Below are positions 42,481-63,228 of a DNA stretch of 64,000 nt, piece after piece. Position numbers and translations under genes: made by a program. This stretch comes from a virus. Taxonomy: Duplodnaviria; Caudoviricetes. The first letter of the stretch is position 1, and every line of letters begins with the position of its first letter. Under the pieces are notes generated by a model. It ran no database searches, had not been told where the DNA came from, and saw only the letters and a list, made by a program, of their open reading frames with translations. The stretch lies in the IMG/VR virus record IMGVR_UViG_3300028048_000055, positions 1 through 64,000 of that record. One strand, written 5' to 3'.

Positions 42481-42542
42481 AATCAACGTAAAAACGAAAA
42501 ATGAAAAAAAGTTTTTATATATAATATAAAATGAGGATGAAA

Positions 42543-42605
42543 ATGCAATTAGTAATAACAACAAACATGACACCAGTCAATAATCCAAAGGTAACTTTCG
42601 ATTAG
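42543..42605 (+). CDS. attenuator leader peptide 1 MQLVITTNMTPVNNPKVTFD
   Basis: GAGG SD; T/N/V/P/M-rich, matching downstream tRNAs. Confidence 0.85.
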   Translation: MQLVITTNMTPVNNPKVTFD

Positions 42606-42631
42606 TTTGTTTCATTACTCGATTTCATTTG

Positions 42632-42666
42632 AATCCTGTATGAGACAAACTCAAACAGGATTTTTT
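42632..42666 (+). terminator. attenuator terminator 1
   Basis: AATCCTGT...ACAGGATT plus T tract. Confidence 0.85.
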
Positions 42667-44796: not shown

Positions 44797-44862
44797 ATGA
44801 CTTACGTTATGAACACAAATAATACCAACCCTAATAATAACCCTGAGGTTCTACAGGATTAG
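44797..44862 (+). CDS. attenuator leader peptide 2 MTYVMNTNNTNPNNNPEVLQD
   Basis: 7 Asn, 3 Thr, 2 Pro; downstream tRNAs Asn/Pro/Thr. Confidence 0.88.
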   Translation: MTYVMNTNNTNPNNNPEVLQD

Positions 44863-44894
44863 TTTTGTTTCATAACTTGATGAATTTTTAAACT

Positions 44895-44934
44895 GGATCC
44901 TGTAAGATATTAGAACTTACAGGATTTCTTTTTT
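44895..44934 (+). terminator. attenuator terminator 2
   Basis: GGATCCTGTAAG/CTTACAGGATTT plus T tract. Confidence 0.88.
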
Positions 44935-46098: not shown

Positions 46099-46109
46099 TA
46101 AATTTTTTA

Positions 46110-46180
46110 GCTTCTATAATTCAATGGTAAAATGCCGGTTTAGTAGTCCGGATTTCTTGGTTCGAGTCCAGGTGGAAGCG
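46110..46180 (+). tRNA. tRNA-Thr(AGT)
   Basis: G1-C72/C2-G71, loop TT-AGT-AG. Confidence 0.75.
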
Positions 46181-46222: not shown

Positions 46223-46882
46223 ATGGAAGAAAATTATATTTGTAAATTTTGTGGGAAACAATGTAAAAATGCTAATTCTTTACGAAATCACGAAAGATTT
46301 TGTAAAGAAAACCCTGAACACCAAGAATCTCCATGGATAAAATTTAATCATGAACGAGGCGCTTGGAATAAAGGATTAACTAAAGATACGGATGAACGTA
46401 TTAAAAAACGTAGCGAAACATTTTCAAAACGCTATAAAGGCACTGAAGAAGGGAAACGAATTTTTAGTCATCCGCAATCTGAAGAACATAAACAAAAAAT
46501 GCGTAAAATTGCAACAGAAAGACATTGGGGCGGTTGGCATACCTCAAAATCTATTGAATTTAATGGTATAAATTTAGATTCTAGTTATGAAGTTGAAGTA
46601 GCAAATCAACTTAATGAAAATAAAATAAAATGGGAAAGACCTACTTATTTTCTATGGGAAGATACTAATGGAGTAAAACATCGTTATTATCCTGATTTTT
46701 ATCTTCCAGAATATAATGTATATCTTGACCCAAAAAATGATTATTTAATAAATAATAAATCTAAAAAATTTGGTATTACTGATGTTGAAAAAATAATGAA
46801 AGTTGAACAACAAAATGGAATACGTATAATTATTTTAGATAAAGATAATTTAACATGGGAAAACATTAAAGAAAAGATTTAA
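46223..46882 (+). CDS. Zn-finger + PD-(D/E)XK (TnsA-like) endonuclease
   Basis: DSSYE, YYPDFYLPEYNVYLDPK; TATAAATA upstream. Confidence 0.85.
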   Translation: MEENYICKFCGKQCKNANSLRNHERFCKENPEHQESPWIKFNHERGAWNKGLTKDTDERIKKRSETFSKRYKGTEEGKRIFSHPQSEEHKQKMRKIATERHWGGWHTSKSIEFNGINLDSSYEVEVANQLNENKIKWERPTYFLWEDTNGVKHRYYPDFYLPEYNVYLDPKNDYLINNKSKKFGITDVEKIMKVEQQNGIRIIILDKDNLTWENIKEKI

Positions 46883-48612: not shown

Positions 48613-48734
48613 CGACGAGTAGCTCAATTGGTAGAGCACATGTTTTTTATACCAACCGCTACTTGGCAAACTTGGTTCCTATTAATTATGGAATAGGTCC
48701 ATGGGGGTTGTAGGTTCGAGTCCTACCTTCCCGG
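48613..48734 (+). ncRNA. tRNA-like RNA with a circularly permuted TCCTAT scaffold in place of the anticodon loop
   Basis: D and T arms intact; T-ACCAAC-C-GCTA-CT-TGGC-AAA-CTTGGT-TCCTATT inside the CATG/CATG stem. Confidence 0.65.
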
Positions 48735-48941: not shown

Positions 48942-48970
48942 TTGACAAACCAAAAACTTTTTACTATATT
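48942..48970 (+). promoter_or_regulatory. sigma70-type promoter of tRNA block 3
   Basis: TTGACA-N17-TATATT. Confidence 0.8.
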
Positions 48971-49032: not shown

Positions 49033-49140
49033 ATGAACAAGAACTTTAACATTGAATTCATCGCGATTGCAGCAGAACGTATTGCAGAATTTGCAGAACG
49101 TGTTTTTGCGATTGACAATTCAGTGCACAGGTTCAAGTAA
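49033..49140 (+). CDS. attenuator leader peptide 3 MNKNFNIEFIAIAAERIAEFAERVFAIDNSVHRFK
   Basis: AAGGT SD; A6 E4 F5 I5 V2. Confidence 0.9.
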   Translation: MNKNFNIEFIAIAAERIAEFAERVFAIDNSVHRFK

Positions 49141-49170
49141 ACGAAATTACTTAAGGTATGAAGAATTTAC

Positions 49171-49205
49171 GGTTCCTGTGTATAACACAGGGACCTTAAT
49201 TTTTT
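49171..49205 (+). terminator. attenuator terminator 3
   Basis: GGTTCCTGTG/CACAGGGACC plus T-rich tail. Confidence 0.85.
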
Positions 49206-49297: not shown

Positions 49298-49368
49298 GGG
49301 CTTATGATGTAATGGTAGCATAATAGCTTTGCAAGCTATTTGTTAGGTTTCGAATACCTATAGGTCCA
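49298..49368 (+). tRNA. tRNA-Ala(TGC)
   Basis: cloverleaf, G3.U70. Confidence 0.88.
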
Positions 49369-49377
49369 CTATATTAT

Positions 49378-49451
49378 GCCGCTCAATCCGAATCCAGTGA
49401 TCGGACGGGACTGAAAATCCCAGAAGCTCAGGGCAGCACTGAGGGGCGGCA
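49378..49451 (+). tRNA. tRNA-Phe(GAA)
   Basis: cloverleaf, atypical D and T loops. Confidence 0.78.
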
Positions 49452-49463
49452 CGAAAACATTAT

Positions 49464-49537
49464 GGGCCAGTAGCCTAGTAGGAAAGGCACCGCACCTGCA
49501 ATGCGGAGTTCATGGGTTCGATCCCCATCTGTGTCCA
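49464..49537 (+). tRNA. tRNA-Ala(TGC), C33, bulged acceptor
   Basis: cloverleaf, G3.U70. Confidence 0.78.
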
Positions 49538-49547
49538 CTAAATTTTT

Positions 49548-49620
49548 GGGCTCGCATGTACCCTGGAGGCGAGCTGGCCTTGCAAGCCGGCTGAGATGGG
49601 TTCGACACCCACCGGGTCCA
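49548..49620 (+). tRNA. tRNA-Ala(TGC), weak D arm
   Basis: G3.U70; anticodon and T arms clear. Confidence 0.75.
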
Positions 49621-49677
49621 TGAAAATAAATTTACATTAAGGAGTTAAAATGGGAACTGATATGTAAAAATAAATAT

Positions 49678-49750
49678 GGGCTTATGGTGTAATTGGTAAC
49701 ATGTCGGCTTTGCAAGCCGAAGAGTCCGGAATCGTCCTCCGGTAGGTCCA
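49678..49750 (+). tRNA. tRNA-Ala(TGC)
   Basis: G3.U70, atypical T loop. Confidence 0.8.
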
Positions 49751-49755
49751 CTAAT

Positions 49756-49830
49756 GGGGGCAAAGGTTACTTTTCGCAACTTTTGCACAAAGAGTTCCTA
49801 ACTATATTGGTTCAATTCCAATAGCCTCCA
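49756..49830 (+). ncRNA. Ala-type acceptor/T-arm minihelix fused to a permuted TCCTA scaffold
   Basis: GGGGGC/GCCTCC-A with G3.U70; T-ACTTTT-C-GCAA-CTT-TTGC-ACA-AAGAGT-TCCTAA. Confidence 0.65.
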
Positions 49831-49840
49831 CTAAATTTAT

Positions 49841-49915
49841 GGGGCTGTAGCTCAGTTTTGGTGGAGCGGAAGACTGAAGATCTTCGCGTCGCAGGTTCGA
49901 TTCCTGCCGGGGGCA
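49841..49915 (+). tRNA. tRNA-Phe(GAA)-like, mismatched acceptor stem
   Basis: GGGGCTG vs CGGGGGC (three G.G pairs). Confidence 0.65.
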
Positions 49916-49922
49916 CTAATAT

Positions 49923-49997
49923 GGTTCTATCGTCTACGGAAGGCTAGGATGTAACCCTCTCAAGGTTATGAATTTGGTTCGACCCCAAATGGAACTA
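49923..49997 (+). tRNA. tRNA-Glu(CTC)
   Basis: cloverleaf. Confidence 0.88.
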
Positions 49998-50007
49998 TTA
50001 AAAATAT

Positions 50008-50081
50008 GGGACTTTAGAATATGCTGGTTAGTTCGCTGCCCTTTCAAGGCGGAAAGTCCGGATCATCGCCGGAAAGTCCTA
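50008..50081 (+). tRNA. tRNA-Glu(TTC)
   Basis: cloverleaf, paralog of 49216. Confidence 0.85.
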
Positions 50082-50090
50082 CTAAAATAT

Positions 50091-50164
50091 ATCCGATTAA
50101 CTCAGTGGTTCAGAGTGACGCTTTGACTAAGCGTAAGTCATAGGTTCGAATCCTTTATTGGGTA
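50091..50164 (+). tRNA. tRNA-Val(GAC)
   Basis: cloverleaf. Confidence 0.9.
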
Positions 50165-50168
50165 CTAT

Positions 50169-50245
50169 CCATAGGCATAACGATTGGTTTTCCGTTTGCC
50201 ACTCTGATAAGGTGGAGACTGTAGGTTCAAATCCTACCCTATGGA
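50169..50245 (+). tRNA. tRNA-Ile(GAT)
   Basis: cloverleaf. Confidence 0.85.
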
Positions 50246-50331: not shown

Positions 50332-50395
50332 CTAAATTAAATTTTAATATTTAAAAGGATTGACATTAGTCAATCCTTTTTCTATATTATAGTAT

Positions 50396-51247: not shown

Positions 51248-51353
51248 GTTATTTCTTGGTGAAATAGACGCCACAGTTTAAGTAAAAGAGATTAAGTAAT
51301 AAAAATAAGGATTGACTAATGTCAATCCTTATTTAAATTTTTATAATAATTTA

Positions 51354-51901: not shown

Positions 51902-51930
51902 TTTACAAGAGTTAAATAATTTACTATATT
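51902..51930 (+). promoter_or_regulatory. sigma70-type promoter of tRNA block 4
   Basis: TTTACA-N17-TATATT. Confidence 0.8.
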
Positions 51931-51951: not shown

Positions 51952-52071
51952 AATAGCAAAAGCGGTTCCTATAACCAGAGGAATAGCTTAGTTGGTTAGA
52001 GCAACGCAGCAATGCGGAGGCCGTCGGTTCGAGTCCGATTTCCCCTACCATCAAGTTTACTGCTCGCTATT
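51952..52071 (+). ncRNA. TCCTAT scaffold copy 6 enclosing an anticodon-less tRNA body (51977-52050, GCAA loop, CCA)
   Basis: AATAGC/GCTATT, AGCGGT/ACTGCT. Confidence 0.75.
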
Positions 52072-52121
52072 TTTACAAAAACAGGAAAAAATTTTTTATA
52101 TATAATATAAAGGTTAAGAAA

Positions 52122-52223
52122 ATGACAAAGTTTGTAGTTGATATGCATGATGTTGATACTCGCCGCGATGGACGAGGTTTCGGCAAGCATGATAAGGATC
52201 GCTACAGACACAGGGTCATTTGA
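52122..52223 (+). CDS. attenuator leader peptide 4 MTKFVVDMHDVDTRRDGRGFGKHDKDRYRHRVI
   Basis: AAGGT SD; D6 R6 G3 K3 H3. Confidence 0.9.
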   Translation: MTKFVVDMHDVDTRRDGRGFGKHDKDRYRHRVI

Positions 52224-52250
52224 TATTAACTATATAAAGAGTTTATAAAG

Positions 52251-52283
52251 ATGATTCCTGTGTAAAAACGGGAATCATTTTTT
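52251..52283 (+). terminator. attenuator terminator 4
   Basis: ATGATTCCTG/CGGGAATCAT plus T tract. Confidence 0.88.
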
Positions 52284-52287
52284 ATTT

Positions 52288-52358
52288 GGTCTCATCGTTT
52301 AATGGATGGACACTAGCTTGTCACGCTAGAAGTACGGGATCGTGACCCGTTGAGACCG
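52288..52358 (+). tRNA. tRNA-Asp(GTC)
   Basis: cloverleaf. Confidence 0.88.
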
Positions 52359-52365
52359 CTAATAA

Positions 52366-52430
52366 AATAGCATAAGAAGTTCCTATTGAAAAATACAGAC
52401 TGCAAATCCGTTAATATACTTCTCGCTATT
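52366..52430 (+). ncRNA. TCCTAT scaffold copy 7 (Cys GCA anticodon loop)
   Basis: AATAGC/GCTATT, AGAAGT/ACTTCT; ACAGA-CTGCAAA-TCCGT. Confidence 0.75.
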
Positions 52431-52435
52431 AATTT

Positions 52436-52509
52436 GGTACCTTAGTTCAGTTGGTTAGAATGCCAGCCTGTCACGCTGGAGGTCACGAGATCGAAGCTCG
52501 TAGGTATCG
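52436..52509 (+). tRNA. tRNA-Asp(GTC)
   Basis: cloverleaf. Confidence 0.92.
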
Positions 52510-52566
52510 TTAAGTCTGTTAAATTATTTTTGACAGGTTCGAAGAATAAAGAATTATATATAATAT

Positions 52567-53331
52567 ATGAATTACAGAAACATATATTATAAGATAATTG
52601 AGAAAGCAAAAAACGAGGATAAAAATGGACACAGACAGTTAGGTTATTTTGAAAAACATCATATATTACCTAAGTCATTAGGCGGTAGTAATGATAAAAA
52701 TAATTTAGTTAAACTTACAGCACGTGAACATTTTATTTGTCATTGGCTACTTGTTAAAATGTATGATAAAGGAACTGATGAAAGAAATAAAATGCTATGT
52801 GCTCTTTGGCGAATGCGTTCAAATCCATTACAAAATCATATACGGTATACTAATGCTAGAACATATGAAAATTTAAGAATAGAATATTCAAAAATTATAA
52901 GTAATCAAATGCATATTATACAAATGGGTAAAAACAATTCACAATTTGGAACTAAATGGTATACAAATAGAAATACAGGAGAAAGTAAAAAATTTAAAGA
53001 AAAACCAAAAGAAGAATATTGGATTGAAGGTAGAAATTTGTTTCATGGCGAAAGCAGTGTATTAAAAATAAAATTAATAACATTACGACATACTGAAACT
53101 AAAGTGCCGCAAAAAAATTATTTAAAATCAGTTGATGATGCACATAAATTATGGGATGAGTTTCATTCTGGAACTTATGAAAAATTAGATGACTTTGCTA
53201 AAATACACAATAAAACTAGAAGTGCAATATTTGTAAAATTTAAAAGATATATACCAGCATTTAATACAGATAAAAAACGTAGTTGCAGAAGTTATAAATC
53301 AAATAATATATTAATTGGAAAATATGAATAA
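52567..53331 (+). CDS. HNH homing endonuclease
   Basis: EKHHILPKSLGG...NLVKLTAREHFICHWLL. Confidence 0.9.
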   Translation: MNYRNIYYKIIEKAKNEDKNGHRQLGYFEKHHILPKSLGGSNDKNNLVKLTAREHFICHWLLVKMYDKGTDERNKMLCALWRMRSNPLQNHIRYTNARTYENLRIEYSKIISNQMHIIQMGKNNSQFGTKWYTNRNTGESKKFKEKPKEEYWIEGRNLFHGESSVLKIKLITLRHTETKVPQKNYLKSVDDAHKLWDEFHSGTYEKLDDFAKIHNKTRSAIFVKFKRYIPAFNTDKKRSCRSYKSNNILIGKYE

Positions 53332-53344
53332 TAGTTTTGAATAT

Positions 53345-53419
53345 AGTCTCGTAGGCTAAGTGGATTTAAACCAGAAGACTACGAATCTTCAATTTCCAGT
53401 TCGAATCTGGACGAGACTA
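53345..53419 (+). tRNA. tRNA-Arg(ACG)
   Basis: cloverleaf. Confidence 0.88.
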
Positions 53420-53567
53420 CTAGAGTTGTCAGCTTAACAACTTTAAATAAATGAGTTCCTGGAGTTTGTAGGTAGCTTCTGCACAAAATCAAAAACCTTC
53501 ATTATGCGGTGGGAGTTTTGCTGGCTTCTCGTGTCCGACACCGGGCAGATAAAAAACCAGTATTTAT

Positions 53568-53641
53568 GCGGTAGTAGCTCAACTGGTAGAGCACCGGATT
53601 GCCATTTCGGAGGTTTGTGGGTTCGAGACCCATCTACCGCT
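53568..53641 (+). tRNA. tRNA-Gly(GCC)
   Basis: cloverleaf, U73. Confidence 0.92.
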
Positions 53642-53650
53642 CTAAAATTT

Positions 53651-53722
53651 GGATCTGTAACTCAGAGGAAGAGTACCTGCCTCTTAAGCAGGGAGTCGTG
53701 ATATCGTAATTCACCAGGTCCA
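53651..53722 (+). tRNA. tRNA-Lys(CTT)
   Basis: cloverleaf. Confidence 0.88.
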
Positions 53723-53737
53723 TTAAAAAATTTCATC

Positions 53738-53808
53738 CCATGTGTAGTGTAACGGTAGCACGCAAGTTTGTGGCACTTGAAGATTGGATTCGACTTCCAA
53801 CCTATGGA
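53738..53808 (+). tRNA. tRNA-His(GTG), no encoded G-1, A73
   Basis: cloverleaf. Confidence 0.8.
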
Positions 53809-53812
53809 TAAT

Positions 53813-53884
53813 GCGGTTATGGTGTAACTGGCAACATAATAGTCTTCCAAACTGTAGTTTCGGGATCGTACCCCGATAGCCGCT
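53813..53884 (+). tRNA. tRNA-Gly(TCC)
   Basis: cloverleaf, U73. Confidence 0.88.
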
Positions 53885-53887
53885 CTA

Positions 53888-54607
53888 ATGAATTACTTAG
53901 AATTAAATGATAAAGGTAAGCTCGGAAGTGATGAGCAAAAATTGGCCGACTATTTTGGAGTCGGTCATTATACTACATTTTATAAAAAGCATTTTTTACA
54001 AAATAAAATAAAACTCACTAAGGATGATTTTATTGCAGGCGTAATTCCAGTAATGTTTTGCGCTATGAAAAAACTTAACATTGATTATAAGCATGATGAT
54101 TATCCTGAACAGCTACAAAAATATCTTCATCGTAGAATTTGGGAATCGACTCTTGGTCGTATAAAAACTAGTGTCTTTAATGATTATCTATTTGGACCTG
54201 TTTTTATTAAACCAAAAGATAAATTAAAAAAGTTTACTGGTTTTGTTTTAAATTCAAGAGATGATTGGCTTCTTACTGAAGGCGCAGGCGATAGCACGAA
54301 AATTATCTGTTCAAAACCGGTAAAATGGGTTACAGAATATCGTATTCCTGTAATTAATGGCGTCGCAAGAGATTATTGTCATTATTTTGGAAATCCAGGT
54401 ATATTTGTAGATAAGGCTGTAATTCAAAATATGATAGGTGATTGGAAAGATTCTCCAAAAGCATATTGCTTGGATGTTGGAGTCTTAGATACTGGAGAAA
54501 CTGCATTAATAGAAGTTAATGATGCATTTAGCTGCGGTAGTTACTCAATGAGTGCTGAAACCTATGGTGATTTACTGACAACAAGATGGAATGAGTTAAA
54601 AGGTTGA
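53888..54607 (+). CDS. ATP-grasp (R2K/DUF4343-like) protein
   Basis: DYPEQL, FIKP..K.FTG, EYR, LDVG..LIEVND. Confidence 0.8.
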   Translation: MNYLELNDKGKLGSDEQKLADYFGVGHYTTFYKKHFLQNKIKLTKDDFIAGVIPVMFCAMKKLNIDYKHDDYPEQLQKYLHRRIWESTLGRIKTSVFNDYLFGPVFIKPKDKLKKFTGFVLNSRDDWLLTEGAGDSTKIICSKPVKWVTEYRIPVINGVARDYCHYFGNPGIFVDKAVIQNMIGDWKDSPKAYCLDVGVLDTGETALIEVNDAFSCGSYSMSAETYGDLLTTRWNELKG

Positions 54608-54638
54608 CGAAAGTCAACCTTTTTTCTATATTTAAATT

Positions 54639-54953: not shown

Positions 54954-55017
54954 TAGGATAAAGGTTGACGAAAGTCAATCTTTTTTCTATATTATAATAT
55001 GGAATAAAGGATTAATA

Positions 55018-55408: not shown

Positions 55409-55852
55409 ATGAGAAGACTATTTATTATTAGAAAAGATTTACATCTTACAGGCGGTAAACTAGCCGCCATGATAGGACATTGTGCAGAATGTTATTGGAT
55501 GAACTTAATTAAATCTGCCAATCGACCGTTTAATGACGGTCCAGGTACATTAGTATCTTTTGTCATCGACGATGATGTTATGCAAAATTATATTCAAGGT
55601 ATTTTCACTAAGACCATTTGTGAAGCAAAGAACCTTAATCATTTGATGAAGGTTGTTGATATTGCTAAAAAACTTGGTCTTGTTGAAGGTACTGATTACG
55701 GTTTTATCGATGATGTATGTAAGACAGAACTTACTCCAGAATTTACCGATGAAAATGGTGTTGACCGTTGTCGTGTAGGAATCTGGTTTAAACCGTTGTC
55801 GGATGAAATCAGTCATAAGCTTAGTAAGAAATATCAATTATACAAGGGTTGA
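55409..55852 (+). CDS. peptidyl-tRNA hydrolase 2 (Pth2)-like protein
   Basis: IIRKDL...GKLAAMIGH, TKTIC, IDD.C.TE motifs. Confidence 0.85.
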   Translation: MRRLFIIRKDLHLTGGKLAAMIGHCAECYWMNLIKSANRPFNDGPGTLVSFVIDDDVMQNYIQGIFTKTICEAKNLNHLMKVVDIAKKLGLVEGTDYGFIDDVCKTELTPEFTDENGVDRCRVGIWFKPLSDEISHKLSKKYQLYKG

Positions 55853-57285: not shown

Positions 57286-57314
57286 TTTACAAACAGAAAA
57301 TAATTTACTATATT
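57286..57314 (+). promoter_or_regulatory. sigma70-type promoter of tRNA block 5
   Basis: TTTACA-N17-TATATT. Confidence 0.8.
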
Positions 57315-57376: not shown

Positions 57377-57463
57377 ATGAAGACTCTTAGTTTAACACTT
57401 GTCCTACTCAGTAGCCTGCTCCTCAGCTGGTTATTGCGTCGTAATATAGTGGGAACTAAGTAG
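57377..57463 (+). CDS. attenuator leader peptide 5 MKTLSLTLVLLSSLLLSWLLRRNIVGTK
   Basis: AAGGT SD; L10 (all six codons), S4 (all AGY), W1. Confidence 0.9.
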   Translation: MKTLSLTLVLLSSLLLSWLLRRNIVGTK

Positions 57464-57491
57464 TTCGGTTTTTTAATCGTATGAATTTATA

Positions 57492-57524
57492 AAGGTTCCC
57501 ATAAGTTGGGGACCTTAATTTTTT
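57492..57524 (+). terminator. attenuator terminator 5
   Basis: AAGGTTCCCA/TGGGGACCTT plus T tract. Confidence 0.85.
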
Positions 57525-57528
57525 ATAT

Positions 57529-57600
57529 AGCTCTATGAGGTAACGGTAGCCTACGAGACTCCAAATCTGCGAAATCCCTGTTCGAATCGGGGTAGGGCTG
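57529..57600 (+). tRNA. tRNA-Trp(CCA), imperfect anticodon stem
   Basis: CGAGA-CTCCAAA-TCTGC, G73. Confidence 0.8.
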
Positions 57601-57604
57601 TAAA

Positions 57605-57694
57605 CGGTCTGTGATTGGAATTGGTATACAGCATCGGCTTAAACCCGGTGGCCGAGATAAATACGGATTGGGGGTTCGAGTCCCTTCAGGCCGA
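57605..57694 (+). tRNA. tRNA-Leu(TAA)
   Basis: class II cloverleaf. Confidence 0.88.
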
Positions 57695-57704
57695 TAAAAT
57701 ATAA

Positions 57705-57786
57705 CGGTATGTGATGGAATGTATACATGCGGGCTTGAGAGGTCCGTGCCCAAAAGGGATTGGGAGTGCGAATCTCCCCGTACCGA
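57705..57786 (+). tRNA. tRNA-Leu(GAG)
   Basis: class II cloverleaf. Confidence 0.85.
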
Positions 57787-57794
57787 TAACATAA

Positions 57795-57878
57795 CGTCAG
57801 GTGGAGTAATTGGTAGCCTCGCAAGAACGAGAGTCTTGTGGTAGAAATACCGTGAGGGTTCGAGTCCCTCTCTGACGA
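57795..57878 (+). tRNA. tRNA-Leu(GAG) with A32/C33
   Basis: loop ACGAGAG, A73, long variable arm. Confidence 0.78.
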
Positions 57879-57887
57879 TAAATTAAT

Positions 57888-57972
57888 GGAAGCGTAGGCT
57901 AATAGGTAAGCCAGCACTTTGCTAAAGTGCCGTGGAGAAATCTGCTTGAAGGTTCGAGCCCTTCCGCTTCCG
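57888..57972 (+). tRNA. tRNA-Ser(GCT)
   Basis: class II cloverleaf, G73. Confidence 0.92.
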
Positions 57973-57980
57973 CTACATAT

Positions 57981-58092
57981 TGCTTGGTGGTGAAAATCGT
58001 GTGGCCTAGGCGCATCGTAGGTAAACACGCCCCGCATAGTAGGGGTGTCTACTTAGCTGGTAGACTTGTTGGTTCGAGTCCAACCTAAGCAG
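57981..58092 (+). tRNA. aberrant 112-nt class II tRNA-like RNA (hairpin inserted in D loop, 8-nt anticodon loop GCATAGTA)
   Basis: good acceptor, T and variable arms. Confidence 0.55.
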
Positions 58093-58100
58093 TTAAATAT

Positions 58101-58174
58101 CCACTGGTGATGGAACTGGCATACATATCGGATTCAAAACCCGAGTTTTGAGGGTTCGACTCCCTCCTGGTGGA
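58101..58174 (+). tRNA. tRNA-Leu(CAA), short variable loop
   Basis: cloverleaf, A73. Confidence 0.85.
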
Positions 58175-58180
58175 CTAAAT

Positions 58181-58265
58181 GGCCGAGTGATGGAACTGGC
58201 GAGACAACGGTGCCTTAGAAGCATCGGTCCGAAAGGGCGTGTGGGTTCGAATCCCACCTTGGCCA
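58181..58265 (+). tRNA. tRNA-Leu(TAG)
   Basis: class II cloverleaf. Confidence 0.9.
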
Positions 58266-58267
58266 CT

Positions 58268-58489
58268 ATGACTAACTTTGAAATGTGAAAGGAATCGCTC
58301 ACTGCAGAAGAGTGGGCAAATAAATTTGTAGAACTGGATTATTGTCCAAAATGTCCAGCCTATAGTTTTTGTAGAGATTGTGATATATTGAATCCAACAA
58401 AGTTAGATGGAACAGTCAATACAGAAGAATGTAATAATACTTGTAGAAAGAGATTTCTTACTTGGGCAAATAAAGATGCACAATGTTAA
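58268..58489 (+). CDS. Cys-rich small protein with in-frame TGA at codon 7
   Basis: MTNFEM*KESLTAEEWANKF...CPKCPAYSFC...CRKRFLTWAN. Confidence 0.5.
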
Positions 58490-58799
58490 ACATGCATATG
58501 TATATTGTAATGATAAGCTTGCGGGTCATTTGTTAAGAAACCGCAAGCATTATGTTTTTATATACGATAAAGATTATGTTGGTCCATCTATTGCCATAAA
58601 TTTTCCTAAATCAACTAGATACTATTCTAGTCCGTATTTATTTCCGTATTTTTATGGATTGTTGCCAGAAGGTGAAAATAAAGAATTCTATTGCAAAATA
58701 TTTCACCTTAATCCAGATGATAATTTTGAAATCCTGACAAATTTAGCATGGCATGAAACAATTGGTCCTGTTACTGTAAGACCTTTCAAAAACGGTTGA
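58476..58799 (+). CDS. stand-alone HipA N-terminal domain (HipS-like) protein
   Basis: AG.L...YVFIYD..Y, LFPYFYGLLPEG, D.F.IL, ETIGPVTV. Confidence 0.85.
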   Translation: MHNVKHAYVYCNDKLAGHLLRNRKHYVFIYDKDYVGPSIAINFPKSTRYYSSPYLFPYFYGLLPEGENKEFYCKIFHLNPDDNFEILTNLAWHETIGPVTVRPFKNG

Positions 58800-58845
58800 C
58801 AAAACATTAATAGTTTTCTATATTAAAATAAAAAAGAGAACCTTA

Positions 58846-59250
58846 ATGTATACATGTAATCCAGATAGAGTTTTTCGTGGACCACGTGAAGCACAAGAAC
58901 ATGATATGGTAGTTGACTTTACTCATGAAGTTGCTAAAAAACTTGAAAAACTTAAATTACCTACATTTGGTAATAATGAAAAATTATTTTCATATATCGA
59001 ACGTGAAAACAGAGATAAGTTATATTTGTCATTTAAATGTGATTATAGAAAAGAATCCATTTTCGTAGAAATTCCTTCAGTTGATTTTGGTATATCTTTA
59101 CACGTAAAAGATTTAAAAAAGATTAAAACTAAACTTAAACCTGATGGTTATCTTATAAAAGCTATTAATGAAGGTGAAGATTTAATAAGGCAAATTCGTA
59201 GTACAATAAAGTCGAAAATTCATACAGCAATTACATTGGATGAAGTATAA
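58846..59250 (+). CDS. hypothetical protein, tandem paralog 1
   Basis: FRGP.EA...A.KLEK...GYLIKAI.E...LDEV. Confidence 0.7.
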   Translation: MYTCNPDRVFRGPREAQEHDMVVDFTHEVAKKLEKLKLPTFGNNEKLFSYIERENRDKLYLSFKCDYRKESIFVEIPSVDFGISLHVKDLKKIKTKLKPDGYLIKAINEGEDLIRQIRSTIKSKIHTAITLDEV

Positions 59251-59702
59251 TGCATGAAATTATAGATGATAGACAATGGCGTGGACCGACTGATGCTGTA
59301 ACATTTAAGAGAACTTGTGAAAATAATCATAGTTTAGCACAAAAACTTGAAAAACAAGGTATTAAGACTAGTGGTATAAATGATGAACTTTATGCTTGTT
59401 TAAAAATTAATAAGCATCCATTATTAATACAACCTAGTTGGCGTTATATTGATTGTTGGGGTTCGCATCCTAGTGGTAAAGATCCATATGATGTTAATAT
59501 TATGATTCCTGCGGTAGGAGTAACAATTCCTGTTAAACTTGCTAAAATTAAAAAGACATTTGAATCTAAAACTTATCTTGTAAAAGCATTGACCGAATAT
59601 AGTGCGGCATTAGCTGCTGCAAAAAGTAAAAAAGCAAAAAAATCTGTAGACTTGGCATATACAAGTATAATTGAATCAGCTCAAGCATTTGATGAGGCAT
59701 AA
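59250..59702 (+). CDS. hypothetical protein, tandem paralog 2
   Basis: WRGP...KLEKQGI...PSWRY...DPYDVNI. Confidence 0.7.
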   Translation: MHEIIDDRQWRGPTDAVTFKRTCENNHSLAQKLEKQGIKTSGINDELYACLKINKHPLLIQPSWRYIDCWGSHPSGKDPYDVNIMIPAVGVTIPVKLAKIKKTFESKTYLVKALTEYSAALAAAKSKKAKKSVDLAYTSIIESAQAFDEA

Positions 59703-59704
59703 TT

Positions 59705-60130
59705 ATGCATATAATTGAAAGAGATAGTACATGGCGTGGTCCAAGCGAAGCTGTGGCATTCAATAGAGAGTGTAATGATAAGCATGATCTTGCTGTAAAA
59801 CTTGAAAAACAAGGTATTATAACTGAAGGTGTAAATACTACACTTTATGGTTATATTAACTTAGGAGAAAGATTTTTACGAATAATTCCTTCTTGGCGTT
59901 ATGATGGCTATTGGAGAACTAAAGATGGTAAATCAGATCCATATGATGTCAATATTGAAATTCCATCATTTGATGTAACTATTCCGGCTAAGCTTGATAA
60001 TATTAAGAAAGTATTTAGTTCTGACGGATATCTTATGAAAGCTATTAAAGAATATGAAGCATCTTTGCATACTGCAAAGCTTGTATTCGCAAATACTATT
60101 AAAGCAGCACAAGCATTGGATGAAGTATAA
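59705..60130 (+). CDS. hypothetical protein, tandem paralog 3
   Basis: WRGP...KLEKQGI...PSWRY...DPYDVNI. Confidence 0.7.
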   Translation: MHIIERDSTWRGPSEAVAFNRECNDKHDLAVKLEKQGIITEGVNTTLYGYINLGERFLRIIPSWRYDGYWRTKDGKSDPYDVNIEIPSFDVTIPAKLDNIKKVFSSDGYLMKAIKEYEASLHTAKLVFANTIKAAQALDEV

Positions 60131-60262
60131 ATGGAAACTTATATTTTATTTGGAATTCCTGCAGTAATTTTTGGTTACATGTTTTTTGGAACCATTGGAA
60201 GTATTCTTAAAACCCGAAAAGAAATTTTAAGATTAAGACATGAAAAAAATTATTTTTATGGG

Positions 60263-60291
60263 TTTACAAACAGAAAATAAATTACTATATT
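60263..60291 (+). promoter_or_regulatory. sigma70-type promoter of tRNA block 6
   Basis: TTTACA-N17-TATATT. Confidence 0.8.
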
Positions 60292-60357
60292 TAACAACGT
60301 AAAATAACGAAAAACAAGAAAAAACTTTTATATATAATAATAAAGGATAAAAGCAAA

Positions 60358-60447
60358 ATGAACTATCAGTTATATACATCATGCACTTCTTCATGCAGAC
60401 AGCAGTCTTCATGTTATTGCATGTATTCCATTAAAACTGATGGGTGA
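60358..60447 (+). CDS. attenuator leader peptide 6 MNYQLYTSCTSSCRQQSSCYCMYSIKTDG
   Basis: AAGGA SD; S6 (all UCN), Y4, C4, Q3 (all CAG). Confidence 0.9.
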   Translation: MNYQLYTSCTSSCRQQSSCYCMYSIKTDG

Positions 60448-60477
60448 CATCATTAAAGTTTGTATATAAACTTTTAT

Positions 60478-60508
60478 GGCGTCACGAAAAGTGACGCTTT
60501 TATTTTTT
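60478..60508 (+). terminator. attenuator terminator 6
   Basis: GGCGTCAC-GAAAA-GTGACGCT plus T tract. Confidence 0.88.
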
Positions 60509-60516
60509 ATTAATTT

Positions 60517-60601
60517 GGCAGTTTCGGATAGCGGCAATTCCTGGAGGCTGTAACCCTCCCGCCTTAACGGGCTTCCGTAGGTTCGAGTCCTACAGCTGTC
60601 A
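60517..60601 (+). tRNA. tRNA-Tyr(GTA)
   Basis: class II cloverleaf. Confidence 0.9.
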
Positions 60602-60621
60602 CTAAAAATTTATGAATTTAT

Positions 60622-60708
60622 GCTAGTTTGGCAGAGTGGCGAATGCGCGTGACTGTAGATCACGTCTCTAACGAGTTAACATCAGGGGTTCGACTCCCTT
60701 AGCTAGCA
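60622..60708 (+). tRNA. tRNA-Tyr(GTA)
   Basis: class II cloverleaf. Confidence 0.9.
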
Positions 60709-60725
60709 CTAAAATATAGGTAAAA

Positions 60726-61262
60726 ATGTCAATAAGTTTAATTGAAAAATATGGAGAAGATTATATACGTAATGTTTTTAAAACTGCCAAAACAGTTGAT
60801 GAAGCATGTGAAAAATTACAAACAATAACAAAATATTTAAATTATTATGCAAAAGAATTAAATTGTATTGATGATTATAATAGAATAAAAATTAATTCTA
60901 GTCAAATTGTTAAAGAACGTTTAAAAGATTATCCAGATGCATACATAATGAAAAATGTTAATGGTGTAGTTACACGTACTATAAATGATGATGCATGGCT
61001 TAAATTAATTTTTGAAAATAAAATTAGTAGTAAAAAACAAACAATATTACGTATTCTTATTAAAGCAGGATATAAAGAAAATAAATGTGAATGTTGCGGT
61101 ATTAATGAATGGAATAAAAAACCAATAACTTTACAATTACATCACAAAAATGGAAATCCACGTGATAATTGTTTAGAAAATTTAGAAATATTATGTCCAA
61201 ATTGTCATTCACAAACTAATAATTATGGAAGTAAAAATGCGGCATTACATATAAAAGATTAA
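60726..61262 (+). CDS. HNH endonuclease
   Basis: CECCG...LQLHHKNGNPRDN..ENLEILCPNCHS. Confidence 0.9.
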   Translation: MSISLIEKYGEDYIRNVFKTAKTVDEACEKLQTITKYLNYYAKELNCIDDYNRIKINSSQIVKERLKDYPDAYIMKNVNGVVTRTINDDAWLKLIFENKISSKKQTILRILIKAGYKENKCECCGINEWNKKPITLQLHHKNGNPRDNCLENLEILCPNCHSQTNNYGSKNAALHIKD

Positions 61263-61529
61263 AACACAAACGAGTAGAACCCGTGTTGCATCATTCTTGA
61301 TTTCATGCTAACGGGCTAACCCAGATGGGGAAAACTCTGGGACGAGGAATCTGCTCTTGCGAATTAGATGAATAACAGAATGATGGTCGCAAGAGTGTAG
61401 TATTGGCTCTACTAAAATATGCCACGTGAGGCCACTTGAAATAAGAGTGAGCGGAGAGAAATTCTGGATTAACCACCTGCTGTGCTCCTTAATCAGTCCT
61501 TGCAATTAGGACGCCTGTAAGTTTGTGTT
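61263..61529 (+). ncRNA. unknown multi-stem structured RNA (~270 nt)
   Basis: AACACAAAC/GTTTGTGTT closing stem, several GC-rich hairpins, CATCATTCT/AGAATGATG long-range pairing. Confidence 0.6.
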
Positions 61530-61535
61530 AATTGT

Positions 61536-61608
61536 GCTGATATAGCCAAGTCTGGTAAGGCTGATGGTTGCAACCCATCGATCGGGAGTTCGAATCTCTC
61601 TATCAGCT
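61536..61608 (+). tRNA. tRNA-Cys(GCA)
   Basis: cloverleaf, U73. Confidence 0.92.
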
Positions 61609-61613
61609 CTACA

Positions 61614-61708
61614 TGTAGCATAGGATGTTCCTATTAATGGAAGATAGGCCATCAGGCCTTGATTCGGTTCAAATCCGAAAGCCGAAAGGCAAATTACATC
61701 CCGCTATA
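61614..61708 (+). ncRNA. TCCTAT scaffold copy 8 (T arm plus two hairpins)
   Basis: TGTAGC/GCTATA, GGATGT/ACATCC; TTCGG-TTCAAAT-CCGAA. Confidence 0.75.
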
Positions 61709-61720
61709 AGAAATTAAAAA

Positions 61721-61791
61721 ATGGCATAAGAAGTTCCTATTTCGCCCGTTAGGGCATCCGACTTGAAATCAGACTAATTACTTCTCGCTAT
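61721..61791 (+). ncRNA. TCCTAT scaffold copy 9 (hairpin + Ser TGA anticodon loop)
   Basis: ATGGC/GCTAT, AGAAGT/ACTTCT; TCCGA-CTTGAAA-TCAGA. Confidence 0.75.
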
Positions 61792-61796
61792 TTAAC

Positions 61797-61868
61797 GGCA
61801 GTATAACACAATGGTTAGTGTAGCGGAATCATAATCCGTTAATATTGGTTCGAATCCAGTTATTGCTA
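61797..61868 (+). tRNA. tRNA-Met(CAT), elongator type
   Basis: cloverleaf, G2-C71/C3-G70; Ile2 not excluded. Confidence 0.8.
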
Positions 61869-61884
61869 TAATAAAAAATTAATT

Positions 61885-62718
61885 ATGAAGTTAAAATACA
61901 TATGTCAATATTGTAATAAAGAATTAACTAGGCCATGTGCATTAGCTATACATCAACGTGTTTGTAAATTAAATCCAAATAGACAACCGTTAATAAATAA
62001 TGGTAATTTAAATATAGCTAAATATCATAAACCTAAGGCTCCATATGGAACATGGAAATGTAAGTGGTGTAATAATGACATTATTTTTGATACTAGAAAA
62101 CAATTAAAAGAACATTTAAAAGAAAAACATCCAGAAAAACGTAATGCATGGAATAAAGGCTTAACAAAAGAAACTGATGAACGTGTTAAACAATTTGGTC
62201 AAACATATTCTAAGCGAATAAAAAATAAAGAAATATCTGCACTTTTTGCAGGCAAAAAACATACAGATGAATGGCGAAAAAATCATTCAGAATTACAAAA
62301 AGAAAGATATAAAGGAATATCGATATATGCAACCGTAAGGGAAAAACGAAAATCTTATCCTGAACAATATTTTGATAAAATATTTAGTGATGCAGAAAAA
62401 CAATATCATGTAGATAGTTATTTTTTAGATTATGCATGGCCATATATTAAATTATATATTGAAGTTGATGGTGAACAACATTATACTGAATCTGGTTTAC
62501 TTCATGATAAAGAAAGAGCAGAAATATTAAGTAAATTAGGTTGGAATTGTATTACGCGTATTAGATGGAAAAATTATATAAAATTAACAACTAATGAAAA
62601 AGAAAATTTTATAAATAATTTATTAAATAAAATTAATATTTTTAAAAATGAAACTATAGGAAGCAAAACAGACTGCCGGCTCCTATATACGGTGTACAAC
62701 GTCGAAGATAAGGTCTAG
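61885..62718 (+). CDS. Zn-finger + DUF559/Vsr-like endonuclease
   Basis: paralog of 43522; LDYAW..LYIEVDGEQHY. Confidence 0.85.
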   Translation: MKLKYICQYCNKELTRPCALAIHQRVCKLNPNRQPLINNGNLNIAKYHKPKAPYGTWKCKWCNNDIIFDTRKQLKEHLKEKHPEKRNAWNKGLTKETDERVKQFGQTYSKRIKNKEISALFAGKKHTDEWRKNHSELQKERYKGISIYATVREKRKSYPEQYFDKIFSDAEKQYHVDSYFLDYAWPYIKLYIEVDGEQHYTESGLLHDKERAEILSKLGWNCITRIRWKNYIKLTTNEKENFINNLLNKINIFKNETIGSKTDCRLLYTVYNVEDKV

Positions 62719-62784
62719 GGTTTGTAAGTTTCAGTATTGGAGAAACTTATACGGCAAGGTTCACCGGGAACAATGAACCATTTT

Positions 62785-62870
62785 TGAGGATTAACCCTAA
62801 TTGGTAAGGGCACGGTTTGGAATACCGTCGTGGGTTTACTCACTTGAAAGTTCGAGTCTTTCATCCTCAG
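62785..62870 (+). tRNA. tRNA-Ser(GGA)
   Basis: class II cloverleaf. Confidence 0.9.
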
Positions 62871-62972
62871 CTACGTATGGTGTTAGCGTTAAAACGGCAT
62901 AGGTATACATATGCACGGCACTGCACAGATGAACTATGCGTATTACTGTGCAAAATAAAAAATACGCTGTCT

Positions 62973-63056
62973 GGAAGAGCATCAGATTGGCGACTCAAGC
63001 TGTCCTGAAAACAGTAGTTCCGCAAGGGCTTGTGGGTTCAAATCCCTCCTCTTCCT
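62973..63056 (+). tRNA. tRNA-Ser(TGA) with C33
   Basis: class II cloverleaf, loop CCTGAAA. Confidence 0.8.
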
Positions 63057-63061
63057 CTAAT

Positions 63062-63142
63062 GGAAGATTAGACTAACTGGTAAGTCAGCAATTTCGAACG
63101 TTGCCGCCGAAAGGCTTGGGTGTTCGAGTCACTCATCTTCCG
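63062..63142 (+). tRNA. tRNA-Ser(CGA)
   Basis: class II cloverleaf. Confidence 0.9.
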
Positions 63143-63152
63143 TTATATTTTC

Positions 63153-63228
63153 TGTCCGTTAGCCAAGTCTGTTCTAAGGCAGGGGTCTCTGAAGCCTCCA
63201 TTCGGTGGTTAAAATCCATCACGGACAA
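63153..63228 (+). tRNA. tRNA-Gln(CTG)
   Basis: cloverleaf, U1-A72. Confidence 0.85.

What the first reader, a model, noticed from the sequence alone, without database searches (positions are those of the whole stretch)
57377..63228. Leader-tRNA matching holds at the codon level, not just the amino acid level
Seen: serine is split between two modules. Leader 5 uses only AGT/AGC (4 of 4) and its block has Ser(GCT). Leader 6 uses only TCA/TCT/TCC (6 of 6) and its block has Ser(GGA), Ser(TGA) and Ser(CGA). Leader 6 Gln codons are all CAG and the tRNA is Gln(CTG). Leader 4 Lys codons are all AAG and the tRNA is Lys(CTT). Leader 1 uses ACA x3, CCA x2 and GTA x2 for Thr(TGT), Pro(TGG) and Val(TAC). 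Inference: the sensed signal is availability of specific tRNA isoacceptors rather than amino acid supply, which favours a response to tRNA cleavage.
Basis: partly seen in the sequence, partly recalled or inferred. Interest (0 to 1): 0.9.

Follow-up and report, generated by a model that had tools for sequence, protein, structure and literature searches.

The report
Codon-matched leader attenuators gating phage tRNAs
In this 165-kb cattle-gut phage each block of tRNA genes follows a tiny translated test gene and a switchable transcription stop. The test genes are written in the very codons that the block's own tRNAs read, so the phage probably makes each tRNA set only when ribosomes decode those codons slowly.

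Summary
All the codon counts are correct. Conditional on the amino acids, 42 of 49 informative leader codons are readable by the anticodons of their own block. Phage codon usage predicts 26.7 (P = 1.3e-6; 7e-5 without Lys and Gln). The reciprocal serine split alone gives P = 0.001. Codons for amino acids outside the block show no such bias.

The setting is a set of six leader-peptide attenuators. Each has a promoter (none was found for leader 2), a short ORF and an intrinsic terminator. In five of six the last codons of the ORF pair with the terminator's left arm. Related rumen phage contigs carry homologous leaders whose composition follows moves of tRNA genes between blocks.

The match is not perfect. 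Lys AAG is common in all leaders. There are a few exceptions, and two relatives look like mismatched recombinants.

The inference is only partly supported. Sensing at isoacceptor level fits the data. A response to tRNA cleavage is not favoured: the phage carries no tRNA for AAA, CAA, AGA or ATA, so a supply-and-demand feedback explains the pattern equally well.

This scan has found the same kind of system in at least eight other phage genomes. I found no published description.

The parts
57286..57314 (+). Promoter of module 5 (TTTACA, 17-nt spacer, TATATT)
   Evidence: The same promoter type stands before leaders 1, 3, 4 and 6 (42452-42480, 48942-48970, 51902-51930, 60263-60291).
57377..57463 (+). 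Leader ORF 5 (28 codons: 10 Leu using all six Leu codons, 4 Ser all AGY, 1 Trp)
   Evidence: It follows a conserved AT-rich box with an AAAGG ribosome-binding site.
57492..57516 (+). Intrinsic terminator of attenuator 5. Its left arm can instead pair with the last codons of the ORF (57446-57453).
   Evidence: The 8-bp alternative pairing is kept in 6 relatives, with covariation across three regions.
57528..58266 (+). tRNA block 5: Trp(CCA), Leu(TAA), Leu(GAG) x2, Ser(GCT), an atypical tRNA-like element at 57980-58093, Leu(CAA), Leu(TAG)
60263..60291 (+). Promoter of module 6
60358..60447 (+). Leader ORF 6 (29 codons: Tyr x4, Ser x6 all TCH, Cys x4, Gln x3 all CAG, Met x2)
60478..60498 (+). Intrinsic terminator of attenuator 6. 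Its left arm pairs alternatively with the stretch around the stop codon.
60517..63228 (+). tRNA block 6: Tyr(GTA) x2, Cys(GCA), Met(CAT), Ser(GGA), Ser(TGA, weak call), Ser(CGA), Gln(CTG). Two ORFs lie among them (60726-61262, 61885-62718).
42531..42662 (+). Leader ORF 1 (42531-42605) and its terminator hairpin (42632-42662). Block 1 (42681-44641) holds Asn(GTT) with an insertion, Thr(TGT), Met, Pro(TGG), Val(TAC) and a tRNA-like element.
44797..44928 (+). Leader ORF 2 (44797-44862) and its terminator (44895-44928). Block 2 (44937-46180) holds Asn(GTT) x3, Pro(CGG), Pro(TGG) and Thr(AGT).
   Evidence: Equilibrium folding switches from 0.00 to 0.96 terminator probability as the ribosome moves from early to late codons.
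49033..49195 (+). Leader ORF 3 (49033-49140) and its terminator (49171-49195). Block 3 (49298-50245) holds Ala(TGC) x4, Phe(GAA), Glu(CTC), Glu(TTC), Val(GAC) and Ile(GAT).
   Evidence: Phe(GAA) at 49844-49915 rests on the Rfam match plus my own reading of the anticodon loop; ARAGORN found nothing there and its acceptor stem is poor. Ile(GAT) is called by ARAGORN only at a lowered threshold.
52122..52282 (+). Leader ORF 4 (52122-52223) and its terminator (52247-52282). Block 4 (52288-53885) holds Asp(GTC) x2, Arg(ACG), Gly(GCC), Lys(CTT), His(GTG) and Gly(TCC).

Best explanation
Six ribosome-mediated (leader-peptide) transcription attenuators control the six tRNA blocks of this phage.

Proposed mechanism:
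- A sigma-70-type promoter drives a short, well-initiated ORF (leader 2 has no promoter of its own and is presumably reached from block 1).
- The middle of the ORF is written in codons read by the tRNAs immediately downstream.
- The last five to nine codons form an RNA strand that can pair with the left arm of an intrinsic terminator.
- If the ribosome runs to the stop codon it covers that strand. The terminator then forms and the tRNA block is not transcribed.
- If the ribosome stalls on a hungry codon in the middle of the ORF, the strand is free. The antiterminator forms and RNA polymerase reads into the tRNA genes.

The product relieves the stall, so each module is a negative-feedback loop on the pool of particular isoacceptors. 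The match at codon level (Ser AGY against TCN, Ala GCR, Ile ATY, Arg CGH, Gln CAG) is what tunes each sensor to the tRNAs that it can supply.

Shown here: the anatomy, the statistics, the reading-frame dependence, and the co-variation of leaders with block content in relatives. Inferred: translation of the ORFs, stalling, and conditional read-through.
For: - **Pairing of leaders with blocks.** Of 720 possible leader-to-block assignments, the true one is the unique maximum at both amino-acid and codon level.
- **Reading frame.** Cognate triplets make up 59% of in-frame codons and 12% and 16% of the other two frames.
- **Synonymous choice.** 42 of 49 informative own-block codons are readable by own-block anticodons, against 26.7 expected (P = 1.3e-6). 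Without Lys and Gln P = 7e-5. Serine alone gives P = 1e-3.
- **Control.** Out-of-block codons show no bias (12 of 20 against 9.7 expected, P = 0.21).
- **Geometry.** Cognate codons are 71% of the ORF body but 17% of the last six codons (Fisher P = 5e-9).
- **Terminators.** The four best terminator-like hits in 20 kb are those after leaders 3, 5, 6 and 4.
- **Antiterminator.** When only the left arm has been transcribed, it pairs with the end of the ORF unless a ribosome sits on the last codons. This holds for leaders 2, 4, 5 and 6.
- **Structural covariation.** The 8-bp alternative pairing of the leader 5 family is kept in six relatives through matched changes in three regions.
- **Relatives.** Where Gln(CTG) and Cys(GCA) lie in the Trp/Leu/Ser(GCT) block, that leader has gained two CAG and two Cys codons. 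The Tyr-block leader there has no Cys codon and no CAG. An unrelated leader in L007 uses CGT/CGA and TCN before Arg(ACG) and Ser(TGA/GGA/CGA).
Against: - There is no direct evidence of expression or termination. The only RNA data are metatranscriptome contigs.
- Equilibrium folding of the full attenuators favours the terminator for leaders 3 to 6 wherever the ribosome is placed. The switch must therefore be kinetic.
- The antiterminator of leader 1 is unclear.
- Codon-level exceptions exist: CCT x2 in leader 2, AGA and AGG in leader 4, and no GAG or TCG codons although Glu(CTC) and Ser(CGA) are present.
- The share of block anticodons sampled at least once (31 of 35) is no better than after synonymous resampling (30.1).
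- Leaders are generally enriched in C-ending codons, also for out-of-block amino acids. Part of the AAG and CAG signal may therefore be compositional.
- L008 has GCC/GCT codons in its leader without an Ala(GGC) gene. L022 has that gene without those codons.
- The host is unknown. Leader-peptide attenuation needs coupled transcription and translation.
Confidence: 0.75

Rival explanations
1. The attenuators exist mainly as a counter-defence sensor. Host anticodon nucleases cleave particular tRNAs, ribosomes stall on the matching leader codons, and the phage then transcribes replacement tRNAs.
For: - The codon-level match is compatible with this reading.
- The phage encodes an RtcB-type RNA ligase (16999-18189) and a PTH2 peptidyl-tRNA hydrolase (55409-55852). 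These fit a theme of tRNA damage or translation stress.
- From my own knowledge, not tested here: phage tRNAs are known to rescue infection from tRNA-cleaving defences.
Against: - The codon match does not discriminate this from plain supply-and-demand feedback.
- By strict wobble the phage lacks tRNAs for AAA, CAA, AGA, AGG and ATA. AAA is 59% of Lys codons, CAA 61% of Gln and AGA 45% of Arg in its genes. Loss of host U34 tRNAs such as Lys(UUU) could not be repaired by this set.
- All 20 amino acids are covered, which suggests general supplementation and not replacement of a few targets.
Confidence: 0.2
2. The leaders sense amino-acid supply or charging at the amino-acid level only. The synonymous pattern is then a by-product of RNA-structure constraints or of a general preference for G/C-ending codons in the leaders.
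For: - C-ending codons are enriched in the leaders for out-of-block amino acids as well (12 of 24 against 4.5 expected).
- AAG is used in 8 of 10 Lys codons across all leaders.
- Some exceptions and some matches lie in the structured 3' tail.
Against: - The Ser AGY/TCN split, Ala GCR, Ile ATY and Arg CGH are not third-position GC effects. They stay significant without Lys and Gln (P = 7e-5).
- Out-of-block codons show no enrichment for codons the phage can read.
- Making more tRNA would not cure amino-acid starvation.
Confidence: 0.08
3. The short ORFs are not translated, and their likeness to the tRNA sets is coincidence or a relic. The hairpins are then ordinary terminators and processing signals between transcription units.
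For: There is no experimental evidence of translation. AT-rich DNA contains many short ORFs.
Against: - The true pairing is the unique maximum of 720 permutations.
- The enrichment is specific to the reading frame.
- The ribosome-binding box is conserved.
- Homologous leaders are conserved as ORFs in many contigs, and their composition tracks tRNA content.
Confidence: 0.02

Closest known systems
Multivalent leader-peptide attenuators of enterobacterial amino-acid operons (thrL, ilvL/ivbL, leuL, hisL, pheL, trpL)
   Same: - A short ORF rich in regulatory codons.
- An intrinsic terminator with an alternative antiterminator that is masked when the ribosome reaches the stop codon.
- A sensor that responds to several amino acids at once.
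- Codon choice matters there as well. From my own knowledge, leuL uses rare CUA codons.
   Different: - The genes controlled here are tRNA genes, not biosynthetic enzymes. The loop closes on the tRNA pool itself.
- Up to six or seven different tRNA species are sampled by one leader.
- Six parallel modules together cover all amino acids.
- The system lies in a phage genome.
- Synonymous codons are partitioned between modules according to the isoacceptors.
T-box riboswitches (sensing of uncharged tRNA before aminoacyl-tRNA synthetase genes in Firmicutes)
   Same: Both are terminator/antiterminator switches that respond to the state of a specific tRNA through codon-anticodon recognition.
   Different: No T-box match was found in the Rfam scan. 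Here the codons are many, lie in frame within an ORF that has a ribosome-binding site, a start and a stop, and are specific to that frame. That points to reading by the ribosome, not to direct binding of tRNA.
Phage tRNA genes as codon-usage supplements or as an escape from tRNA-targeting defences
   Same: A large phage tRNA set that complements the host's decoding. The set is biased to codons ending in G or C.
   Different: To my knowledge those accounts treat the tRNA genes as simply expressed. Here each block appears to be conditionally transcribed by a codon-matched sensor. I found no paper describing this.
The same kind of system noted earlier in this scan in other uncultured phages (e1-371813, e1-5319931, e1-5402871 and others)
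   Same: A promoter, a codon-matched short ORF and a switchable terminator in front of phage tRNA blocks.
   Different: Those are other genomes and habitats, and I did not re-test them. This report adds a formal test at the synonymous-codon level and its controls.

Membership tests
Ribosome-mediated (leader-peptide) transcription attenuator | A short ORF with a ribosome-binding site and a start codon, lying in the 5' leader between the promoter and the first controlled gene | tested here: met
   Five of six leaders share the promoter and the AT-rich box with AAAGG. Leader 2 has its own upstream sequence.
Ribosome-mediated (leader-peptide) transcription attenuator | Regulatory codons cognate to the product of the controlled genes are enriched in the ORF | tested here: met
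   unique maximum of 720 permutations; 97 of 164 codons cognate; 59% in frame against 12% and 16% out of frame.
Ribosome-mediated (leader-peptide) transcription attenuator | An intrinsic terminator between the ORF and the first controlled gene | tested here: met
   The hairpins of leaders 1 and 2 have larger loops and were seen only by folding.
Ribosome-mediated (leader-peptide) transcription attenuator | A mutually exclusive antiterminator whose 5' strand is covered by a ribosome at the stop codon | tested here: met
   for leaders 2, 4, 5 and 6. Leader 3 by direct reading (CACAGG against CCTGTG). Leader 1 is inconclusive. Covariation is shown.
Ribosome-mediated (leader-peptide) transcription attenuator | Read-through rises when the cognate charged tRNA is scarce | not testable with these tools
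   Only metatranscriptome contigs were available.
T-box riboswitch | A specifier loop and the conserved T-box sequence, recognisable by Rfam's T-box model | tested here: not met
   The Rfam scan of 40000-64000 at E <= 0.1 returned only tRNA-clan matches.
Counter-defence tRNA set against anticodon nucleases | The phage tRNAs replace the very isoacceptors that a host nuclease cleaves | tested here: inconclusive
   The host and its defences are unknown. By strict wobble the phage lacks tRNAs for AAA, CAA, AGA and ATA. An RtcB ligase is present.

The most novel reading that the evidence does not exclude
The modules form a per-isoacceptor surveillance system. The phage detects in real time which host tRNA species are being destroyed or are missing, whether through anticodon nucleases or host shut-off, and it transcribes exactly the replacement block. 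Synonymous codons are partitioned between sensors so that different isoacceptors of one amino acid are reported separately.
Probability: 0.2. Interest if true: 0.9.

Novelty: new variant of a known kind. Interest (0 to 1): 0.75.

Why it matters
- Phage tRNA genes are usually treated as constitutive add-ons. Feedback control by codon-matched leader peptides would mean that phages measure the host's decoding capacity codon by codon and top it up on demand.
- This would extend classical attenuation from amino-acid biosynthesis to the tRNA pool itself.
- The leaders would become a natural readout of which isoacceptors limit phage translation in the host.
- The codon-level partition, with Ser AGY and TCN in separate modules, makes the idea directly testable by synonymous recoding.
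- It also suggests compact sensor parts for tRNA availability.

Tried and rejected
- **Equilibrium folding of whole attenuators with a positioned ribosome.** Only leader 2 switched cleanly. The terminators of leaders 3 to 6 stay favoured, so I used a co-transcriptional view instead.
- **Coverage test, asking whether every block anticodon is sampled.** The result, 31 of 35, is no better than after synonymous resampling.
- **Synonymous substitutions among homologous leaders.** Nearly all changes stay within one tRNA's decoding set (Y to Y, or CGH). There are too few R-ending sites to test AAG and CAG conservation.
- **Link between Ala(GGC) and GCC/GCT codons.** Several lineages are concordant, but L008 and L022 are discordant, so I do not use it as support.
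- **C-ending preference as evidence of tuning to G34 tRNAs.** It is also present for out-of-block codons, so it is a general leader property.
- **Expression data.** The phage occurs in bovine and goat gut metagenomes. The three RNA runs are contigs with small shares. Some contigs bridge leader 4 and its terminator (51995-52356), and one starts at the leader 5 stop and runs through its terminator into the tRNAs (57463-57789). DNA carry-over cannot be excluded, so nothing can be concluded.
- **GenBank phage search.** Only tRNA-sized matches were found.
- **Literature searches and two papers read.** I found no description of leader-peptide control of tRNA genes.
- **Host identification.** Not attempted.


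Full report
**What is there**

The window is the first 64 kb of a single 165,061-bp contig with 32% G+C. It encodes a T4-type large terminase domain and an RtcB ligase, so it is a large phage. Near-identical DNA occurs in bovine and goat gut metagenomes from many studies.

All its tRNA genes lie on the + strand between 42.6 and 63.2 kb. ARAGORN and Rfam together give about 45 tRNA or tRNA-like genes. They fall into six blocks.

Each block is preceded by a short ORF:
- leader 1, 42531-42605
- leader 2, 44797-44862
- leader 3, 49033-49140
- leader 4, 52122-52223
- leader 5, 57377-57463
- leader 6, 60358-60447

Five of the six share two upstream elements: a TTTACA/TTGACA, 17-nt spacer, TATATT promoter, and a conserved AT-rich box ending in an AAAGG ribosome-binding site. 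Every leader is followed by a hairpin and a run of T. The four best terminator-like hits in the 20-kb scan are exactly those after leaders 3, 5, 6 and 4.

**Check of the observation**

- Leader 5 has four Ser codons, all AGT or AGC. Its block holds Ser(GCT).
- Leader 6 has six Ser codons, all TCA, TCT or TCC, and three Gln codons, all CAG. Its block holds Ser(GGA), Ser(CGA), Gln(CTG) and a weakly scoring Ser(TGA) at 62973-63056.
- Leader 4 has three Lys codons, all AAG, with Lys(CTT).
- Leader 1 has ACA x3, CCA x2 and GTA x2. It also has one ACT and one GTC.

- Leader 3 uses only GCA or GCG for six Ala codons, before four Ala(TGC) genes.
- Leader 3 uses only ATT or ATC for five Ile codons, before an Ile(GAT) gene at 50169-50245 that ARAGORN calls only at a lowered threshold.
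- Leader 3 has five Phe codons, before a tRNA at 49844-49915 that Rfam matches. I read its anticodon loop as GAA; ARAGORN did not call it and its acceptor stem is poor.
- The first tRNA after leader 1 is an Asn(GTT) gene split by an insertion of about 245 nt. This explains the three Asn codons of that leader.

**Is it more than chance?**

I took codon usage from 153 non-overlapping ORFs of at least 120 codons. Results:

| Test | Result |
|---|---|
| Serine split | P = 1.1e-3 |
| CAG 3 of 3 | P = 0.06 |
| AAG 3 of 3 | P = 0.07 |
| All informative own-block codons, strict wobble | 42 of 49 readable, 26.7 expected, P = 1.3e-6 |
| Same, if U34 also reads U | P about 1e-4 |
| Same, without Lys and Gln | P = 7e-5 |
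| Same, also without Ser | P = 0.006 |
| Synonymous resampling, 5000 trials | never reached the observed 97 cognate codons (mean 81.8, maximum 93) |

An informative codon is one whose amino acid is supplied by the block but whose synonyms are not all readable by the block's anticodons.

Controls:
- Codons for amino acids that the own block does not supply are not enriched for codons readable by the phage's other tRNAs (12 of 20 against 9.7 expected, P = 0.21). The bias is therefore specific to the block.
- Cognate triplets are 59% of in-frame codons but 12% and 16% of the other two frames.
- The true leader-to-block assignment is the unique best of 720 permutations.

Two cautions:
- Leaders are generally rich in C-ending codons, also for out-of-block amino acids. 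AAG is 8 of 10 Lys codons over all leaders. The Lys item, and perhaps the Gln item, is therefore not specific evidence.
- The share of block anticodons sampled at least once (31 of 35) is no better than after resampling. The four missed are Pro(CGG) and Pro(TGG) in block 2, Glu(CTC) in block 3 and Ser(CGA) in block 6. Three of these are C34 species whose G-ending codon is also read by a U34 partner in the same block.

**Anatomy of the switch**

Cognate codons fill the body of each ORF (71%). The last six codons are mostly non-cognate (17%; Fisher P = 5e-9).

Those last codons are complementary to the left arm of the terminator:
- leader 2: CAGGAT with ATCCTG
- leader 3: CACAGG with CCTGTG
- leader 4: a 6 + 4 bp helix
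- leader 5: GGGAAC with GTTCCC
- leader 6: GGTGAC with GTCAC

I folded the RNA up to the point where only the left arm has been transcribed. The arm is then paired to the end of the ORF as long as the ribosome sits upstream. It is released when the ribosome reaches the last codons or the stop (leaders 2, 4, 5 and 6).

Without any ribosome, the leader 5 tail pairs instead with codons 4 to 6 of its own ORF, and the terminator forms. This is the classical four-region design.

With the full RNA at equilibrium, the terminators of leaders 3 to 6 always win. The decision must therefore be kinetic, as in known attenuators. Leader 1 is not clear.

In the leader 5 family an 8-bp antiterminator helix is kept in six relatives. 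A G-to-A change in the ORF tail is matched by C-to-T in the left arm and by G-to-A in the right arm.

**Relatives**

Forty loci from rumen-type viral contigs carry homologous modules. They supply natural experiments.
- In several contigs (L012, L016, L035, L038 and others) Gln(CTG) and Cys(GCA) lie in the Trp/Leu/Ser(GCT) block. There the leader has gained two CAG and two Cys codons and keeps seven AGY Ser codons. The Tyr-block leader in those contigs has no Cys codon, has only a CAA at codon 2, and uses TCN for five of six Ser codons. Its single AGC lies in the tail that pairs with the terminator.
- L007 has a different leader before Arg(ACG), Ser(TGA), Gly(TCC), His, Ser(GGA) and Ser(CGA). 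It uses CGT/CGA for Arg (3 of 3) and TCN for Ser (4 of 4).
- Gln codons in leaders whose block holds Gln(CTG) are CAG in 5 of 5 cases. In leaders without it I count four CAA and two CAG.

The match is not absolute.
- L022 joins a window-type Ala leader (four Ile codons, only GCA/GCG for Ala) to a block that has Ala(GGC) and no Ile(GAT).
- L008 has GCC/GCT codons in its leader without an Ala(GGC) gene.
- Both look like recent recombinants.
- Synonymous differences among homologous leaders almost all stay within one tRNA's reading set, but there are too few to test.

**Interpretation**

The best explanation is a set of leader-peptide attenuators that close a negative-feedback loop on tRNA supply. 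The synonymous choice tunes each sensor to the isoacceptors that its block can deliver.

If serine supply were the signal, there would be no reason to keep AGY and TCN in separate modules.

It does not favour tRNA cleavage over other causes of scarcity. A ribosome senses any shortage of an isoacceptor in the same way.

By strict wobble, the codons not read by any phage tRNA are AAA, CAA, AGA, AGG, ATA, CCY, CGG and GCY. These include the commonest Lys, Gln and Arg codons of the phage's own genes. Lys(CTT) and Gln(CTG) cannot stand in for cleaved U34 tRNAs. The set looks like a supplement for G- and C-ending codons in an AT-rich host.

The RtcB ligase and PTH2 genes keep the damage hypothesis alive, but only circumstantially. 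I put it at about 0.2.

**Comparison with what is known**

The design is that of the multivalent enterobacterial attenuators (thrL, ilvL, leuL). Every sequence-level defining feature that I could test is met.

It is not a T-box. Rfam finds none, and the signal depends on the reading frame.

What is new is the target, which is tRNA genes, together with the feedback logic, the number of species sampled per leader, and the partition of synonymous codons between modules.

Six literature searches and two papers read gave no description of leader-peptide control of tRNA genes.

Earlier notes of this scan report the same kind of system in at least eight other uncultured phages. This is therefore a recurrent class and not a single oddity.

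**Verdict**

- The system is a new variant of a known kind of regulation, so far unpublished as far as I could find.
- It is directly testable by synonymous recoding.

Noticed in passing
window 42681-43005: The tRNA-Asn(GTT) gene is interrupted directly after the anticodon by an insertion of about 245 nt (about 42716-42960). An uninterrupted homologue lies at L008:1636-1708. Rfam gave no group I intron match there. The phage also encodes RtcB, so protein-dependent splicing is conceivable.
   Followed up: partly
window 44567-44641 and 51977-52047: Two tRNA-like elements have good acceptor, D and T arms (Rfam 44 and 48 bits) but a 4-nt GNRA-type loop where the anticodon loop should be. They stand just upstream of leaders 2 and 4. 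The one before leader 4 lies between its promoter and the ORF. The position before the leader 4 type is conserved in many relatives. They may be processing signals that free the leader mRNA.
   Followed up: partly
window 48613-48734; also L001:10766-10879, L002:16127-16241 and 16372-16483, L008:8852-8962: tRNA matches of 110-122 nt with an insert of about 40-50 nt. ARAGORN at a low threshold calls the window copy Lys(TTT) with an intron. They are conserved upstream of the Ala-leader promoter. They may relate to the dispersed RNA scaffold noted by other readers of this genome.
   Followed up: no
window 57980-58093: An atypical 114-nt tRNA-like element inside block 5. Its T arm and acceptor stem are good and its middle part is aberrant. 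Its identity is unclear.
   Followed up: no
window 16999-18189, 55409-55852, 53888-54607, 58407-58799: Pfam matches to an RtcB RNA ligase, a PTH2 peptidyl-tRNA hydrolase, an R2K-clade ATP-grasp protein and a protein holding only the HipA N-terminal domain. The last three lie among the tRNA blocks.
   Followed up: partly
window 30193-31521 (- strand): A TnpB/Cas12f-like ORF (OrfB_IS605 plus TNB domain) on the minority strand. It coincides with the only dip in GC skew in the window.
   Followed up: no
window 58846-60130: Three tandem paralogous ORFs (58846-59250, 59250-59702, 59705-60130) with similar N-terminal halves lie between blocks 5 and 6. Their function is unknown.
   Followed up: no
window 50353-50380, 51303-51334, 54598-54623, 54960-54983: Perfect hairpins whose stems contain a TTGAC(A/G) -35 hexamer and which are followed by TATATT. 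They look like combined terminator and promoter units between genes.
   Followed up: no
window 43495-44280, 45404-46039, 46223-46882, 52567-53331, 60726-61262, 61885-62718: ORFs interspersed among the tRNA genes begin with Cys-rich, zinc-finger-like motifs. They resemble one another and look like homing-endonuclease-type genes. I did not run them against Pfam.
   Followed up: no
L022 (- strand) 6317-8505; L008 9077-10450: These relatives appear to be recombinants in which the leader and the tRNA block no longer match. L022 has Ile codons in its leader without an Ile(GAT) gene. L008 has GCC/GCT codons without an Ala(GGC) gene.
   Followed up: partly
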